From the NCBI RefSeq assembly GCF_016026235.1, contig NZ_CP065614.1: a DNA stretch of 64,000 nucleotides. One strand, written 5' to 3'. Shown here piece by piece: positions 14,201-20,200 of the stretch. Source of the DNA: Escherichia coli (GTDB lineage Bacteria > Pseudomonadota > Gammaproteobacteria > Enterobacterales > Enterobacteriaceae). A program made the position numbers. Position 1 is the first letter of the stretch. Each line of letters begins with the position of its first letter.

Positions 14201-17200
14201 TACAAAGCGGAGGTAATACACCGTAAGAGCTGGAAAAACCGTGCAGAAGTGGAACTGGCCACACTCACGTGGGTGGACTGGTATAACAATCGACGATTGC
14301 TGGAAAGGCTGGGCCATACTCCTCCGGCAGAAGCAGAAAAAGCTTATTATGCTTCCATCGGAAACGATGATCTGGCAGCCTGAGTTCACAGATAAAACAC
14401 TCTCCAGGAAACCCGGGGCGGTTCAGTTTTGTAGTGCACCGTTAATTGCCAGTTCATACCAGATTGTCAGAATGGCTGTAGCTTTACCCGATTCTATGAT
14501 GTATATGAATCCCTGGCAGTCCTGTTAGCATTTGCGGATATTTTTTCCGCTATCTGGGGTAACTGCTCATAGCTGAGTTAAGACAGCATTTATTCATCCA
14601 TCTTGCATGCTCCGTATAATAATTTTTTTACAGATGAAAATTATATCGTATATATTTTAATTATTTGTAGTAAATATTAGATTAAGTATGATTTAATCCA
14701 TGTTGTTTACTTATCATACCCTCTACTAGTTTTTGTAGAACAGAACCGAATACTGCCCTGTGCAGGGAAAATATTATCCAGCGTACAGGAGTTTACTTTT
14801 CTCGGAAATGCATGAAATTTGACAAATATAGAAATCTTATTACAAAATTCATGGAAAAAACTGTGACGTATTTATAAAAAATTGTAAGTCAGTATGTCAT
14901 CATATGTAATGAAATAATATAACCATTGGAATGGAAATGAAATGACGGACAATCATCCTGTTTTACAGGGTGTTGTAATTATAAAAGAGAGTAGGTGGGT
15001 AACAATGGTTGATACAGATCATTACGTACCTTTAAGAACTTTTTACAATATAAAAGTTTTTTTGTGTGATATTATTATGGATAAATTACCTAAAAGTAAA
15101 AGCCTGATGGTTTTTCTTGAAGTCGCCCGTAGTGGTGGGATCATGAATGCTTCAAAAAAACTTAATATCACCCAGCCTACTGTTACCAGAATAATCAGAG
15201 AGCTTGAGAACTATGTAGGAACACCTTTATTCGAGAGAACCTGTTCCGGTGTTTCCCTGAATCAGGCTGGTAATGTTTTTCACGGCAGGGTGTTAAGCTA
15301 TATTAATGGATTGCAAAAATCTATCTCTGAAATCAGAAAGGAGTTTGGAAAGGATAATAAGAAATTCTCATTAGGATATTCATCACTGGTTGGTTATACG
15401 GTCCTTCCTGATGTGATTAATGAGTTTCGGGAACTTAACAGGGATGTATCCATAAGTATTTACGAAGGTCAGTTATCTGATCTGCTTCCCCTTCTTAATA
15501 CTGGTAGACTTGACTGTGCCATCGGAACACTACTTAACGACGAACTGCCTTATGAGTACAGTGCTGAATTGCTTTTCAAAAGCAGTTTCTCTGTATTCAC
15601 ATCAGTACTGAGTCCATACTCGAGGGCAAGAAATTTGCAGGAACTCCAAGAGGCAAAGTGGGTCTTACCGGTAACTTGTTTTGGATATTATAATAACCTT
15701 ACTGAATTTCTTAGAAGAGCAGGAGTGAATATTGATAATGCCATCAGAACAGACTCCATTTCATCAATAATAAACTTGGTTTCCTGTGCTGACTATGTCA
15801 CGGTTCTGGCGAAACCTATGGGTGATGGCAGAAATAAAAAACTGTCTCTGCGGCCAATTCGTATCAAGGAACAATTACCTTCTGCTGATTATTACCTCAC
15901 TTGGAGTAAAAAATATATTCCTTCCAGACTGTTGAGTGAATTTATGCGTATAATAAAAGCACGTTGCTCTGTGAGTGTGTGGGGGGAATAATTAAAGAAA
16001 GCATGCCCTGTCATGCTTTCTTTTCAGTTATTAATGGGTGACGAGGTTAATAAAAATTTGTGCGCCTATCAGCAGACAGTCATCATCAAGGTAGTATGGG
16101 TTTGAATGAAGATAATTATTAATACCTTTCTCCGCGCAACCACTTCCTAGAAAAAACATAGCTCCCTTCCTGTCAGGCACAGCATTAACCATATAGCTGA
16201 AGTCTTCACTAGCGGTCATTGGTTTACAGTGACTGTCAATACGTTGCAGAAAACATGAGGCGCTTTGTATTACTCGCTGAAATGCCTCCTTATGGTTGAC
16301 AACGGCTGGATATCCAGTTGAAACCATTGTTGTTCTGAATCCGCGCAACTTACTTTCAGTTACAATGGATGAGAAATGATTTTTCAGGACTGAATCCGTT
16401 TCTTCGTCCATTGAACGGATGGTTCCTCTGGCCTGAACGTAGTCTGGAACTGCATTGGGTACACTACCGCCATGTATCATTCCGCAGCCAAAGACCGCAG
16501 GGCTGAACGGACTGGTTTTTTTAGCTACAATATAATCAAGATCTGCGATGATTCGTACGGCTTCACGAATAGCATCTAAGCCTTTCTGTGGAGTGGAACC
16601 ATGGGCTGAAACGCCGCCGATATCGAGAGTCCATGCGGCCCCCCAGGAGGACATAATCCCATCATTGATTTTTATAGAGCCAACTTCTATTGAAGCATCA
16701 TTATGAAGGGCGTAAATCTCATCAACGTCGATTACACACCCGCATTCAACCATTTTTTCCGCACCAGGAACGCGCATATCTTCCTCTGCCATCTGGAAGA
16801 TAAACCGGACATTACATTTTAATGCATGCTGGTTTTCGGCCAGAAAACGTGCCGCTGTGAGCGCAATGGCCATGTGTGAATCATGACCACAGTTGTAAGC
16901 CATATTATCATGTACAGAACGGTATTCAGACTCGGTCAGGTCCGGCATTTCCAGTCCATCCATGTCTGCTCTAAAAGCAACTCTTTTTATGTTGTCAGCA
17001 ATATTCAGGTCAGCATGAAAACCGGTAAATCCTGGATACTCAACAACTGAATAACCAAAGGACTGCATCATTTTTTTGCAGTATGCTGATGTTTTATATT
17101 CTTCTCCGGAGGCTTCAGGGATCGTATGGAGATAATGTCGAACTTCTTTACTGAATTTCTCGAGTAGGGATAATTCTTGCGATATTGTATAATCTTTCAT

Positions 17201-20200
17201 AAGCTGTATTAACCTTTAAATAATATTCTGAAACTTCAAGATTAACTGTGCGACAACGGCAGCACCAAAAAATGCGCTAGTAAAAACCACAAGGGATACA
17301 ATAACTATTTTCCAACTGAGTGACTTCAGTTTGTCAATACTGTTCCCAACAGACAGACCGGCAAACGCAAGAAGTGGCGTCGTCGTTGCCAAGAAATCTA
17401 TTTTATTGGTCATACTCATAAATATATGACTAACGGGTGAATAAGGCATGCTCAGTAATAAGGCAATCAGTGTTGCCCAAGCAAACGCAGGAAGTGGAAT
17501 TTTGGGTAACCAAATTTTTATTTGAATTGATGCGATAATAACTAGGAACATTACTGCTGCACCTGGTAGAGCATCCACTACTGACATTCCTTTACCAATA
17601 AACTGTGCCAGCAATACCAGAGCGATACAAGGAATAATTATTTTTGTGTTATCTGAAAATGTTTTAATGTCCATCATATATACCGTGGATTATTTACGAA
17701 GAAGTTTATAGATGAAGTTGCTCAAGGGAAGGGCAAGAAAGATAAGTGCATACATTCCTGTCACGGCTGCCAGCATATTACTCGTGGCCGCAAAGGCGAG
17801 GATCTGACCAGACATCTCGGGTACAGCATTTGATAAAGAAGCTGATGCGGCTGCCATCATGCTGCCGGAACCAAGTCCACATGCGACAGCTAGGGACAGA
17901 GGATGTAATCCAAATGTGAGTCCTACAGGGCTAATAATGCCAAAGAAAACGGTGCCAAGAACGCTTCCGACAATATAAGTTCCAAGTACCCCCGTTCCCT
18001 CTGGGCTATTGATACCATACTTTTCACCAATAACTCCCAGTGATGGTTCCCGTGAAATACTGGAGCAGGCACCAACGGCCTCTCTGCGCATTCCCAATAA
18101 AATAGCGAGCGGCATAGCAATTAATACAGATGCTAAATTACCTAATTCCTGAAGGATTAGCGCTGGCCCGGCCTTGATAACCTCAGAAACATTGGGGCCA
18201 ACCAAGGTGCCGTATTTTACCCCGAGTGGTAATAATGATATCATCACTATGTTTCCGGTTTTTTTAATCGCGTCATGATTAAGTATATTACCCAGTGGTC
18301 TGATATATTTTCCGATTAAATCAGGTGTCACAAGAACACCAATAATAACGGCGTACAACATGGGTAATAGACTAAAGTTGACACCAAGGGCTGAGACCTT
18401 AATAACACCAATGCTTTCTGCTATTACAGTTATAATCCCTGCGGTAACGAATATTACACCTGATGACTTGATTAGCTTTAAAGTTTTCATAAACAGGCTC
18501 ACTTGTTAAATTTGTTTTAAGCCTATCAACAACTATTTGAAAGAATAATTCCTTTTCTTTTTTGGATATACACAACATGTATATCTGAGCGGTTAATATT
18601 GATTCTTATCAAAAAAACACAACAGAGGGTTTCTCATAATATAATGATTAATATGCGATTTTTTTATTGTAGATCTGTATCACAAACTGGGAAGGTACCG
18701 GGTTGTGGAAAACCCGCCCGACGTTTCCTCATGGAATGAACACTGATATGCATCACCTGACAGATGTCGATGGTTCATGATGAACTGCCAAAATATCTGC
18801 TGGCTCCAGAAGTGAGTGCCCTGCTCCATTACGTCCCTGATCTGCGCCGCAAGATGCTGCTGGCCACACTGTGGAACACCGGAGCACGCATTAATGAAGC
18901 ACTGGCGCTGACGCGGGGGGATTTTTCGCTCGCGCCTCCGTATCCGTTTGTGCAGCTTGCGACACTGAAACAACGGACCGAAAAGGCAGCCAGAACGGCA
19001 GGAAGAGCGCCGGCCGGTCAGCAGACTCACCGGCTGGTTCCGCTCTCCGACACCTGGTACGTCAGCCAGCTGCAGACGATGGTGGCAACACTGAAAATCC
19101 CCATGGAACGGCGTAATAAACGAACAGGCAGGACAGAGAAAGCGCGGATCTGGGAAGTGACAGACAGAACGGTCAGGACCTGGATTGGGGAGGCGGTTGC
19201 CGCCGCTGCCGCTGATGGTGTGACGTTCTCTGTCCCGGTCACGCCACATACGTTCCGCCATTCCTATGCGATGCACATGCTGTATGCCGGTATACCGCTG
19301 AAGGTCCTGCAGAGCCTGATGGGGCATAAGTCCATCAGCTCAACAGAGGTCTACACGAAGGTGTTTGCGCTGGATGTGGCTGCACGGCACCGGGTGCAGT
19401 TTTCGATGCCTGAGTCCGATGCGGTGTCTATGCTCAAAAGAATTCCTTAAGCTCTGACTTTTTTAAATCCCTTTCGGATATCTCATGGATATATTATCGG
19501 TATTTCATATTCTGTTGACATGCAGGACTGGTATAGAGTAAAAAAACATCTATTGAGTACCTCTTGGATATCCGAAAGGTGTCTTCGGGGTTCTTTATGG
19601 GTATTACATGTGGATTCTGGAGATACACTATGCCTGTTATTGCTAATACGCATCCCAAAGGTGGTGTGGGTAAGACAACTTCATCCGTAAACATTGTTGG
19701 TGAAATGAAGTCTGATACAGTTGATCTGGATACTCATACCGGGCTTTCTATCATTCTGGGGCTGAGACCTGAAGGAAAAGAAATTTCCGTGAAAGTACCC
19801 AAAACAGTGGATGAGTTAATCGAAATTATGACTCCCTACAAGAACAGCGATAAGACGTTACTTATTGACTGTGGGGGATTTGACTCAGATCTTACCCGTA
19901 CTGCGATTGCCTTTGCAGACTGCGTTATTGTCCCTTCAAAAGACTCCCTGACTGAGCGTATTGGTTTGATGCATTTTGATGGAGTACTGGACGAAATCAG
20001 CTCTATCATGGGGACCGATATAACTGCTCACCTGTATCTCTGTAAAGTTAATCCTAACAAGAAGAAATTCCCTAAGCTTGATGCAATCCTGCCATCATTC
20101 AAACATCTGAAGCTGATGAAGAGCCGCATTTCTGCTCGTGCAGAATTTGAGGATGTCATTGAGACTGGGATGGGAATCACTGAGTCTGTTCATGGGCGCT

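What the first reader, a model, noticed from the sequence alone, without database searches (positions are those of the whole stretch)
14425..18503. AT-rich island encoding a LysR regulator, an M20 amidohydrolase and two membrane proteins (putative N-acyl amino acid or peptide uptake and hydrolysis unit)
The segment is visibly lower in GC than its surroundings and is bounded by IS629 and the plasmid maintenance block. The divergent LysR gene next to an amidohydrolase operon with a DUF3100-like membrane protein pair resembles abg-type catabolic modules, but the membrane components do not look like AbgT, so the substrate is unknown.
Basis: partly seen in the sequence, partly recalled or inferred. 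Interest (0 to 1): 0.5.

Follow-up and report, generated by a model that had tools for sequence, protein, structure and literature searches.

The report
Plasmid transporter-plus-amidohydrolase nutrient operon
This AT-rich plasmid segment carries a LysR regulator and a three-gene operon for an unstudied two-protein membrane transporter plus a metal-dependent amide-cutting enzyme, most likely an anaerobic scavenging unit; the gene trio recurs across bacteria and archaea but its substrate is unknown.

Summary
Window 14426-18700 is 39.5% GC, against 48% for the whole window. It contains four intact genes under strong purifying selection: a TdcA-like LysR regulator, an M20D amidohydrolase with all metal ligands, a 153-aa membrane protein and a DUF3100 membrane protein. 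An IS629-like element lies on the left; a truncated plasmid resolvase gene and ParA lie on the right.

One detail is wrong. The LysR gene is convergent with the operon, not divergent, and a strong hairpin separates the two.

New findings:
- The small membrane protein follows DUF3100 in 76 of 76 assessable species loci and is fused to it in about 20 protein clusters.
- A confident AlphaFold model of the pair has the NapA/CitS/AspT/ASBT elevator-transporter fold.
- An M20D gene lies next to or near the pair in 67 of 73 assessable loci, from Enterobacterales to Haloarchaea.
- A perfect FNR box and a LysR-type dyad upstream of the operon are conserved across genera.

The most likely function is anaerobically induced uptake and cytoplasmic hydrolysis of an N-acyl amino acid or dipeptide-like compound. 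This copies the logic of abg, but the genes are not abg orthologues. The substrate is unknown and I found no literature on DUF3100. Interest is moderate.

The parts
13130..14425 (+). Left flank: IS629-like IS3-family element (1296 bp) with orfB broken into three frames
   Evidence: The terminal inverted repeats TGAACCGCCCCGGG lie at 13130 and 14425. The ORF fragments hit the IS3 transposase model. Thousands of 95-99% identical copies occur in plasmids.
14426..15076 (.). AT-rich non-coding spacer (GC about 0.32) upstream of the LysR gene; presumably holds its promoter
   Evidence: Composition is. There is no Rfam match and no homology to the chromosomal loci of Shimwellia or Intestinirhabdus.
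15077..15991 (+). LysR-type regulator of the TdcA subfamily (304 aa; the longest ORF starts at 14942)
   Evidence: NCBIfam TdcA model: 449 bits against a cut-off of 308, aligned from residue 42 of the long ORF. It is 39% identical to E. coli K-12 TdcA and 28% to AbgR. Homology to Shimwellia starts exactly at 15076/15077. PGAP uses this start in NZ_CP054663.
15994..16023 (.). 12-bp-stem hairpin between the convergent genes, probably a bidirectional terminator
   Evidence: The fold gives -15.1 and -15.3 kcal/mol on the two strands, z = -5.8 and -5.6, and none of 200 shuffles fold as well.
16031..17200 (-). M20D-subfamily amidohydrolase (389 aa), third gene of the operon
   Evidence: TIGR01891 at 255 bits. 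The best solved relatives are YxeP, HmrA and ILL2 at E about 1e-37. C104, H106, E139, E140, H166 and H365 are invariant in 62 of 62 neighbours of DUF3100 pairs.
17216..17677 (-). Small transporter subunit (153 aa, family-less membrane protein), second gene
   Evidence: No NCBIfam or Pfam family. A homologue lies directly downstream of DUF3100 in every locus that extends far enough. It is found fused to the C-terminus of DUF3100 in proteins of about 420-490 aa.
17690..18490 (-). Large transporter subunit, DUF3100 (266 aa from ATG 18490; a GTG at 18502 would give 270 aa), first gene
   Evidence: PF11299 at E=1.1e-91, full length. It is 50-86% identical to homologues from Enterobacterales through to Haloarchaea.
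18568..18582 (-). Dyad ATACA-N5-TGTAT (T-N11-A type), candidate LysR recognition site
   Evidence: It is identical in arm sequence and position in Shimwellia. In Intestinirhabdus both arms are changed (ATATCA-N4-TGATAT). Assignment to the LysR protein is inference.
18599..18612 (.). Perfect FNR consensus box TTGATAAGAATCAA, 115 bp upstream of the start codon
   Evidence: There are two such sites in the 64-kb window against 0.18 expected. A perfect box sits at the same position upstream of the DUF3100 gene in Shimwellia, Intestinirhabdus and Citrobacter youngae.
18669..18684 (-). CRP-like site TGTGA-N6-TCTAC (only the left half is conserved)
   Evidence: The TGTGA half-site is conserved 69-72 bp upstream of the FNR box in four genera. 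This is weak evidence.
18764..19450 (+). Right flank: 5'-truncated ResD-like tyrosine recombinase gene
   Evidence: It is 96% identical to residues 41-267 of the intact integrase that lies on the other side of the island in IncF plasmid NZ_CP054663. There the two copies form 678-bp direct repeats around the island.

Best explanation
The segment is a horizontally acquired uptake-and-hydrolysis cassette. The operon on the minus strand (18490 to 16031) encodes a secondary transporter made of two membrane proteins, DUF3100 plus a 153-aa partner. Together they form one elevator-type (NapA/CitS/AspT/ASBT-like) unit. The operon also encodes a cytoplasmic M20D metallo-amidohydrolase.

The transporter most likely imports a small amide-linked compound, such as an N-acyl-L-amino acid or a dipeptide-like molecule. 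The enzyme then cleaves it to release an amino acid and an acid for nutrition. The convergent TdcA-like LysR protein probably senses the substrate or a product and acts at the ATACA-N5-TGTAT dyad. A perfect FNR box, and possibly a CRP site, would restrict expression to anaerobic and perhaps catabolite-poor gut conditions.

Shown here: the gene identities, the intact catalytic residues, the obligate pairing and natural fusion of the two membrane proteins, the predicted transporter fold, the cross-domain linkage to M20D, and the conserved regulatory motifs. Inferred: the direction of transport, the substrate class, which regulator binds which site, and the physiological role.
For: The metal ligands and catalytic Glu are invariant in 62 of 62 M20D neighbours, the window protein included.

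Operon layout: the genes lie on one strand with 12- and 15-nt gaps, and a hairpin terminator follows the last gene.

Pairing of the two membrane proteins:
- The small partner lies directly downstream of DUF3100 in 76 of 80 species loci. The other four contigs end within 122 bp.
- About 20 cluster representatives of 420-490 aa carry DUF3100 at the N-terminus and the partner at the C-terminus, in the same order as the genes.

Fold:
- The AF2 model of the concatenated window pair has pLDDT 84.8 and pTM 0.81.
- It superposes on AFDB models of natural fusions at TM 0.84-0.86.

Linkage to M20D:
- An M20D gene is adjacent on the same strand in 65 loci and within 5 kb in 2 more, out of 73 assessable loci. 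These span Enterobacterales, Clostridia, Halanaerobiales, Spirochaetes, Desulfobacterota, Fusobacteria, Actinomycetota and Haloarchaea.
- Two of three fused forms examined also sit beside M20 genes.

The FNR box and the dyad are conserved across genera.

All four genes are under purifying selection.
Against: There are no experimental data for any member. No paper in the searchable library mentions DUF3100 or PF11299.

The fold class also contains ion antiporters and exporters, so the direction of transport and the substrate cannot be read from the fold.

The heterodimer model was built as an artificial single chain.

The M20D genes next to DUF3100 pairs fall into two subtypes: about 390 aa and YxeP-like here, and about 440 aa and PM20D2/HmrA-like in most other loci. 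Substrates may therefore differ between lineages.

Six loci lack an M20D neighbour, and one fused form sits among unrelated enzymes.

The spacing between the FNR box and any convincing -10 element does not fit a canonical -41.5 class II promoter, and the transcription start is unknown.

In some sister plasmids IS600 interrupts the enzyme gene, so EIEC does not universally need the module.
Confidence: 0.65

Rival explanations
1. The transporter works outward or as a precursor/product exchanger. Either it expels a product of the amidohydrolase, or it swaps substrate for product as AspT does for aspartate and alanine. The module would then serve detoxification, resistance or energy conservation rather than simple nutrient import.
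For: The closest structural matches include antiporters and exchangers (NapA, NhaP, KefC, AspT) and PIN exporters. Weak Pfam hints in the small-subunit family point to the LysO lysine exporter. The M20D relative HmrA is linked to antibiotic resistance; this rests on my knowledge of the PDB 3ram/4ewt entries seen.
Against: The same fold class holds many importers (CitS, ASBT, SbtA). Tight co-transcription of a carrier with a cytoplasmic hydrolase under a LysR regulator is the usual layout of catabolic uptake operons such as abg. No signal peptide or secretion-related gene is present.
Confidence: 0.13
2. The island is passive cargo in this plasmid. The genes are intact but not used by the host and are on the way to decay, as is common on EIEC/Shigella invasion plasmids.
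For: It occurs in only 7 of 5426 complete E. coli genomes, always on plasmids. The M20 gene is interrupted by IS600 in CP065623 and strain VL7S7, and it is not listed as a CDS in CP091385. The island is flanked by IS elements and a truncated recombinase gene.
Against: In this window all four ORFs are full length relative to the chromosomal orthologues. The promoter motifs are intact. The plasmid copies are 98.9-99.9% identical across human, mouse and swine isolates. The same protein sequences occur on hundreds of E. coli, Salmonella and Shigella contigs.
Confidence: 0.1
3. The regulator is genuine TdcA, as RefSeq annotates it, and controls threonine/serine catabolism. Its position next to the operon would then be incidental.
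For: It scores 449 bits against the NCBIfam TdcA equivalog model, above the cut-off of 308. PGAP names it tdcA.
Against: It is only 39% identical to E. coli K-12 TdcA. No tdcB or tdcC gene is nearby, whereas tdcA in K-12 is the first gene of tdcABCDE. The same regulator travels with the operon in the same convergent arrangement in the Shimwellia and Intestinirhabdus chromosomes.
Confidence: 0.04

Closest known systems
E. coli abgR-abgABT (p-aminobenzoyl-glutamate uptake and hydrolysis)
   Same: The logic is the same: a LysR regulator, M20D-type amidohydrolase(s) and a secondary transporter that imports the amide substrate for cytoplasmic cleavage (annotation).
   Different: These are not orthologues. 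The regulator is 28% identical to AbgR, the enzyme is 35% identical to AbgA over 160 aa and only marginally similar to AbgB, and there is no AbgT-family protein. There is one enzyme gene rather than two. The regulator is convergent rather than divergent. The transporter has two subunits and belongs to another family.
M20D amidohydrolases with solved structures: B. subtilis YxeP (1ysj), S. aureus HmrA (4ewt/3ram), Arabidopsis ILL2 (1xmb), Corynebacterium N-acyl-glutamine aminoacylase (6slf)
   Same: Full-length homology at E about 1e-37 to 1e-24. The CGHDxH, AEE, HN and C-terminal His motifs are shared.
   Different: The relationship is distant (full-length phmmer E about 1e-37 at best), and substrate specificity in this subfamily is not predictable from sequence. 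As far as I recall, none of these enzymes is encoded next to a DUF3100 pair; this was not checked here.
Elevator-type secondary transporters of the CPA/AT superfamily (NapA, CitS, AspT, NhaP, ASBT, SbtA, OadB, PIN)
   Different: Sequence identity is only 8-16%, and there is no significant sequence-family match. The unit is split into two polypeptides of 266 and 153 aa. The coupling ion and the substrate are unknown.
Two-subunit secondary carriers such as MadL/MadM malonate carrier, TRAP DctQ/DctM and LrgA/LrgB (from my own knowledge, not tested)
   Same: A large and a small integral membrane protein are encoded side by side, are both presumably required, and are fused in some lineages.
   Different: No homology was tested or shown. 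The gene order and sizes differ.
E. coli tdc operon and TdcA
   Same: The regulator belongs to the TdcA subfamily. Like tdc, the promoter carries signs of anaerobic (FNR) and possibly CRP control; the comparison with tdc rests on my own knowledge.
   Different: The target genes are different, identity to TdcA is 39%, and the regulator gene lies outside the operon.

Membership tests
Peptidase M20D / TIGR01891 amidohydrolase | Full-length match to the subfamily HMM above the curated cut-off | tested here: met
   255.3 bits against a cut-off of 153.75, covering residues 19-379.
Peptidase M20D / TIGR01891 amidohydrolase | Cys/His/Glu/His/His metal ligands and the catalytic Glu | tested here: met
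   C104, H106, E139, E140, H166 and H365 align with YxeP and HmrA and are invariant in 62 of 62 related enzymes. That these positions are the ligands comes from published M20D structures as I recall them.
Peptidase M20D / TIGR01891 amidohydrolase | Catalytic domain plus inserted M20 dimerisation (satellite) domain | tested here: met
   The 79%-identical Shimwellia orthologue carries PF01546 and PF07687. The window protein aligns end to end with YxeP.
Peptidase M20D / TIGR01891 amidohydrolase | Hydrolysis of an N-acyl amino acid or peptide bond | not testable with these tools
   This needs an enzyme assay.
DUF3100 (PF11299) | Full-length Pfam match (large membrane protein) | tested here: met
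   E=1.1e-91, model positions 1-234 of 235.
DUF3100 (PF11299) | Pfam or profile match for the 153-aa protein | tested here: not met
   Only E=0.02. hhalign of the two family profiles gives probability 7.8%. It is a separate, unnamed family.
CPA/AT-type elevator secondary transporters | Shared fold with solved members | tested here: met
CPA/AT-type elevator secondary transporters | Ion-coupled solute transport | not testable with these tools
   This needs a transport assay.
abg system (AbgR/AbgA/AbgB/AbgT) | AbgT-family transporter | tested here: not met
   Neither the Pfam nor the NCBIfam scans of the two membrane proteins give an AbgT match.
abg system (AbgR/AbgA/AbgB/AbgT) | Orthologues of AbgA and AbgB | tested here: not met
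   35% identity over 160 aa to AbgA; E=0.011 to AbgB. YxeP, HmrA and ILL2 are closer than the Abg-type structure 3io1.
abg system (AbgR/AbgA/AbgB/AbgT) | Divergently transcribed LysR regulator AbgR | tested here: not met
   The regulator is convergent and 28% identical to AbgR.
TdcA (NCBIfam NF007667 equivalog) | HMM score above the curated cut-off | tested here: met
   448.8 bits against a cut-off of 308.
TdcA (NCBIfam NF007667 equivalog) | Encoded in, and activating, the tdcABCDEFG threonine/serine operon | tested here: not met
   There are no tdc genes in the neighbourhood. Identity to K-12 TdcA is 39%. Regulatory activity is not testable here.
FNR-controlled promoters | TTGAT-N4-ATCAA site upstream of the operon, conserved in orthologous loci | tested here: met
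   The site lies at 18599-18612, against 0.18 expected per window. A perfect box is at the equivalent place in three other genera.
FNR-controlled promoters | FNR-dependent anaerobic induction; site at a productive distance from the transcription start | not testable with these tools
   The transcription start is unknown, and no convincing -10 element lies at the class II distance.

The most novel reading that the evidence does not exclude
DUF3100 and its 150-aa partner would define an uncharacterised family of two-subunit elevator-type secondary transporters present in both Bacteria and Archaea. Their ancestral job would be to feed M20D amidohydrolases with a class of amide-linked metabolites, for example N-acyl amino acids or unusual dipeptides from host, diet or microbiota. 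On EIEC and Salmonella plasmids the cassette would be an FNR-switched gut-fitness trait.
Probability: 0.45. Interest if true: 0.6.

Novelty: new variant of a known kind. Interest (0 to 1): 0.45.

Why it matters
If correct, this assigns a function and an architecture to a widespread domain of unknown function. It would be a split elevator-type carrier genetically tied to M20D amidohydrolases in more than 90% of assessable species loci, across two domains of life.

It also names a concrete, easily clonable 3.5-kb cassette in which to find the substrate. That bears on which amide-linked nutrients gut Enterobacteriaceae and Clostridia scavenge under anaerobiosis. It also bears on what metabolic cargo enteroinvasive E. 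coli plasmids carry beside virulence genes.

Two practical corrections follow. RefSeq's 'TdcA' name is a transferred label, not a true TdcA. The 'hypothetical protein' is a transporter subunit.

Tried and rejected
1. Internal-repeat idea. A Pfam hit at E=0.02 suggested the small protein might be a diverged copy of the N-terminal part of DUF3100. Profile-profile comparison gives probability 7.8%, so I rejected it.

2. Literature. Searches for DUF3100 and PF11299 returned nothing. A search on M20D, transporter and operon gave only a lead in C. difficile: the sigma-54 operon CD2699-CD2697, described as 'membrane proteins, peptidase M20D' (PMC7438776, PMC9130780). I could not link it to DUF3100. 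The C. difficile DUF3100 loci I hold have no sigma-54 motif.

3. Riboswitch or sRNA in the AT-rich spacer and leader. There is no Rfam match at E<=0.1.

4. Anti-phage defence role. There are no PADLOC hits.

5. Promoter mapping. The generic sigma-70 and terminator scans were no better than shuffled sequence and missed the intergenic hairpin. I could not place a -10 element at a canonical distance from the FNR box.

6. The frequent 426-450-aa upstream neighbour in 11 loci has no Pfam or NCBIfam family. An apparent 'cluster 2' neighbour was probably an antisense ORF artefact over the M20 gene; the HMM recount found M20D hits downstream in the loci concerned.

7. abg orthology and true-TdcA identity were both tested and rejected.

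
Full report
**Observation**

The window between 14426 and about 18700 is 39.5% GC. The whole window is 48.2%, and the 500-bp windows immediately outside are 50-59%. It holds four ORFs:
- a LysR-type gene on the plus strand (longest ORF 14942-15991);
- an M20 amidohydrolase on the minus strand (16031-17200);
- a 153-aa membrane ORF on the minus strand (17216-17677);
- a 266/270-aa membrane ORF on the minus strand (17690-18490/18502).

The three minus-strand genes are separated by 12 and 15 nt and form an operon.

It converges on it tail to tail, with 39 bp between the stop codons. 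That gap contains a 12-bp-stem hairpin at 15994-16023, with -15 kcal/mol on either strand and z about -5.7. This is probably a bidirectional terminator.

**Borders**

On the left, the inverted repeat of an IS629-like IS3 element ends at 14425. The element spans 13130-14425 (1296 bp) and its orfB is split into three frames. Three further copies lie elsewhere in the window.

On the right, the ORF at 18764-19450 is a 5'-truncated tyrosine recombinase. It is 96% identical to residues 41-267 of the intact ResD-like integrase that lies on the other side of the island in a 108-kb mouse IncF plasmid. In that plasmid the two copies form 678-bp direct repeats around the island. ParA, ParM and toxin-antitoxin genes follow.

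DNA homology to the Shimwellia blattae chromosome covers only 15076-18617, at 71% identity. It starts exactly at an internal ATG of the LysR ORF (15077, 'MDKLPKSK') and ends just upstream of the promoter motifs described below. The core module is therefore about 3.5 kb, and the LysR protein is most likely 304 aa. NCBI's PGAP pipeline chose that start in NZ_CP054663. The stretch 14426-15076 is an unrelated AT-rich spacer with no Rfam match.

**Are the genes real?**

Yes. Against the Shimwellia and Intestinirhabdus orthologues, amino-acid identity is 62-86% while synonymous sites are saturated. Where it can be measured, dN/dS is 0.02-0.05.

**The enzyme**

It matches TIGR01891 (M20D amidohydrolases) at 255 bits, against a cut-off of 154. 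Its closest solved relatives are B. subtilis YxeP, S. aureus HmrA and Arabidopsis ILL2, at E about 1e-37.

The residues that align with the M20D metal ligands and catalytic base are C104, H106, E139/E140, H166 and H365. All are present, and all are invariant in 62 of 62 related enzymes encoded next to DUF3100 genes.

The enzyme is not an AbgA or AbgB orthologue. It is 35% identical to AbgA over 160 aa, and the match to AbgB has E=0.011.

**The regulator**

It scores above the NCBIfam TdcA cut-off and RefSeq calls it tdcA. But it is only 39% identical to K-12 TdcA and 28% to AbgR. There are no tdc genes nearby. It also keeps the same convergent position next to the operon in Shimwellia and Intestinirhabdus. 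I read it as a TdcA-subfamily paralogue dedicated to this operon.

**The membrane proteins**

The larger one is a full-length DUF3100 (PF11299, E=1e-91). The smaller one has no family. It is not a diverged DUF3100, because hhalign gives only 7.8% probability. Three lines of evidence indicate that the two are subunits of a single transporter.

- Co-location. A scan of one genome per species returned 80 loci: Enterobacterales, Clostridia including C. difficile, Halanaerobiales, Spirochaetes, Desulfobacterota, Fusobacteria, Actinomycetota and Haloarchaea. DUF3100 identity was 44-84%. A homologue of the small protein lies immediately downstream in 76 of them. The other four contigs end within 122 bp.
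- Natural fusion. An exhaustive search with the small protein found about 20 cluster representatives of 420-490 aa. In each, DUF3100 occupies the N-terminus and the small protein the C-terminus, in the same order as the genes.
- Structure prediction. I built an AlphaFold2 model of the concatenated window pair from an alignment of natural fusions and concatenated pairs. It is confident (pLDDT 84.8, pTM 0.81). It superposes on AlphaFold DB models of natural fusions at TM 0.84-0.86.

The most conserved motifs are SISREPSLG...EKYG...SPEG and GLGSGSMM in DUF3100, and TTPLLAFAG in the partner. In the model they sit on short helix-break-helix elements, as expected of a transport core.

**Link to the enzyme**

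An M20D gene is adjacent on the same strand in 65 of the 80 loci and lies within 5 kb in two more. Seven loci are too short to judge and six lack one, which gives 67 of 73 assessable loci.

Two M20D subtypes take part. A YxeP-like type of about 390 aa with the motif CGHDxH occurs here and in 14 others. A type of about 440 aa with the motif CGHNxQ is closest to PM20D2 (Xaa-Arg dipeptidase) and HmrA.

Two of three fused DUF3100 genes examined also sit next to M20 genes and a LysR gene. The third sits among unrelated enzymes.

**Regulation**

Upstream of the operon lies a perfect FNR consensus, TTGATAAGAATCAA, at 18599-18612. It is one of two such sites in the window, against 0.18 expected. A perfect box sits at the same distance from the start codon, about 110-120 bp, in Shimwellia, Intestinirhabdus and Citrobacter youngae.

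Sixteen bases downstream is a dyad, ATACA-N5-TGTAT, at 18568-18582. It is of the LysR T-N11-A type. It is identical in arm sequence in Shimwellia and changed on both arms in Intestinirhabdus (ATATCA-N4-TGATAT).

A TGTGA half-site lies about 70 bp upstream of the FNR box in four genera and may be a CRP site, but this is weak. I could not place a convincing -10 element, so the promoter geometry is unresolved.

**Distribution**

The island is rare in E. coli. It occurs in 7 of 5426 complete genomes, always on plasmids, and in 11 PLSDB plasmids. Most of these are 230-297-kb IncF plasmids from human isolates; one is from mouse and one from swine. The large size and the nearby senB gene suggest invasion-type plasmids, but this was not verified.

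Identical or near-identical proteins occur on hundreds of E. coli (including O28ac and O124), Salmonella, Shigella and Citrobacter contigs. In two plasmids IS600 interrupts the enzyme gene, so some lineages are losing the module.

**Interpretation**

The best-supported reading is an uptake-and-hydrolysis cassette, at confidence about 0.65. A two-subunit elevator-type carrier imports a small amide-linked compound. The cytoplasmic M20D enzyme cleaves it. The LysR protein provides substrate-specific control, and FNR provides anaerobic control.

This copies the logic of abgR-abgABT, but every membership test for that system fails. The transporter belongs to a family with no literature that I could find.

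The rivals are these:
- The carrier is an exporter or a precursor/product exchanger (0.13).
- The island is unused cargo in this host (0.10).
- The regulator is a true TdcA (0.04).

The substrate cannot be named from sequence.

**Novelty and interest**

The cassette itself is already annotated piecemeal in RefSeq as 'TdcA', 'M20 family metallopeptidase', 'hypothetical protein' and 'DUF3100'. The new points are four: the obligate two-subunit nature of the transporter, its fold class, its cross-domain linkage to M20D amidohydrolases, and the conserved FNR and LysR promoter motifs.

I rate it a new variant of a known kind of system, of moderate interest (0.45). It would rise to about 0.6 if the DUF3100 pair proves to be a dedicated importer family for M20D substrates.

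Noticed in passing
window ~6811-13034: A complete phosphoglycerate transport system (pgtA, pgtB, pgtC, pgtP) sits on the plasmid just left of the IS element. From my own knowledge this system is best known from the Salmonella chromosome. The coordinates are transferred from the annotation of the 99.9% identical plasmid NZ_CP065612; pgtP is the ORF at 11670-13034.
   Followed up: partly
window 13130-14425, 24049-25354, 46544-47853, 62083-63392: Four copies of the same IS629-like IS3 element are delimited by the repeat TGAACCGCCCCGGG. The copy next to the island is 1296 bp rather than 1306-1310 bp, and its orfB is split into three overlapping frames, so it is probably inactive.
   Followed up: partly
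window 18764-19450; L089 5329-6135 and 11336-12012: The recombinase ORF right of the island is a 5'-truncated duplicate of the plasmid's ResD-like integrase. In IncF plasmid NZ_CP054663 an intact copy and the truncated copy (90.7% identical, 678 bp) bracket the island as direct repeats. This suggests the island arrived by recombination in the resolvase region.
   Followed up: partly
window 315-328: This is the only other perfect FNR consensus (TTGATTATTATCAA) in the 64-kb window. I did not examine its context.
   Followed up: no
plasmids CP065623.1, NZ_JBLWKF010000002.1 and CP091385.1 (hits H2, H13, H6): In sister plasmids the M20 gene is interrupted by IS600, or is missing from the CDS list, while the rest of the island stays 99.7-99.9% identical. 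This is a sign of ongoing gene decay in some lineages.
   Followed up: no
window 14942-15076: RefSeq start calls for the LysR gene are inconsistent between plasmids: 349 aa in NZ_CP065612 and 304 aa in NZ_CP054663. Cross-species homology starts at the 304-aa start. A Shine-Dalgarno-like AGGTGG precedes a third candidate ATG at 15005.
   Followed up: partly
L014 846-2123 and ten other loci (cluster 1): A 426-450-aa protein with no Pfam or NCBIfam family (only a faint C-terminal HTH hint) lies directly upstream of the DUF3100 pair in 11 loci from Desulfobacterota, Fusobacteria, Spirochaetes and Clostridia. It may be a dedicated regulator or an accessory protein.
   Followed up: partly
C. difficile 630 CD2699-CD2697 (literature: PMC7438776, PMC9130780): A sigma-54 (SigL)-dependent operon described as 'membrane proteins, peptidase (M20D)', strongly down in a sigL mutant, could be the same kind of module under a different regulator. 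The C. difficile DUF3100 loci I hold (L033, L035, L081) have no sigma-54 motif, so the link is unverified.
   Followed up: partly
L044, L048, L056, L071, L074 upstream genes; L021 and L072 downstream genes: Some DUF3100-partner-M20D loci add a nitrilase-superfamily C-N hydrolase (similar to deaminated-glutathione amidase) or a serine hydroxymethyltransferase. These are possible hints about the substrate class.
   Followed up: no
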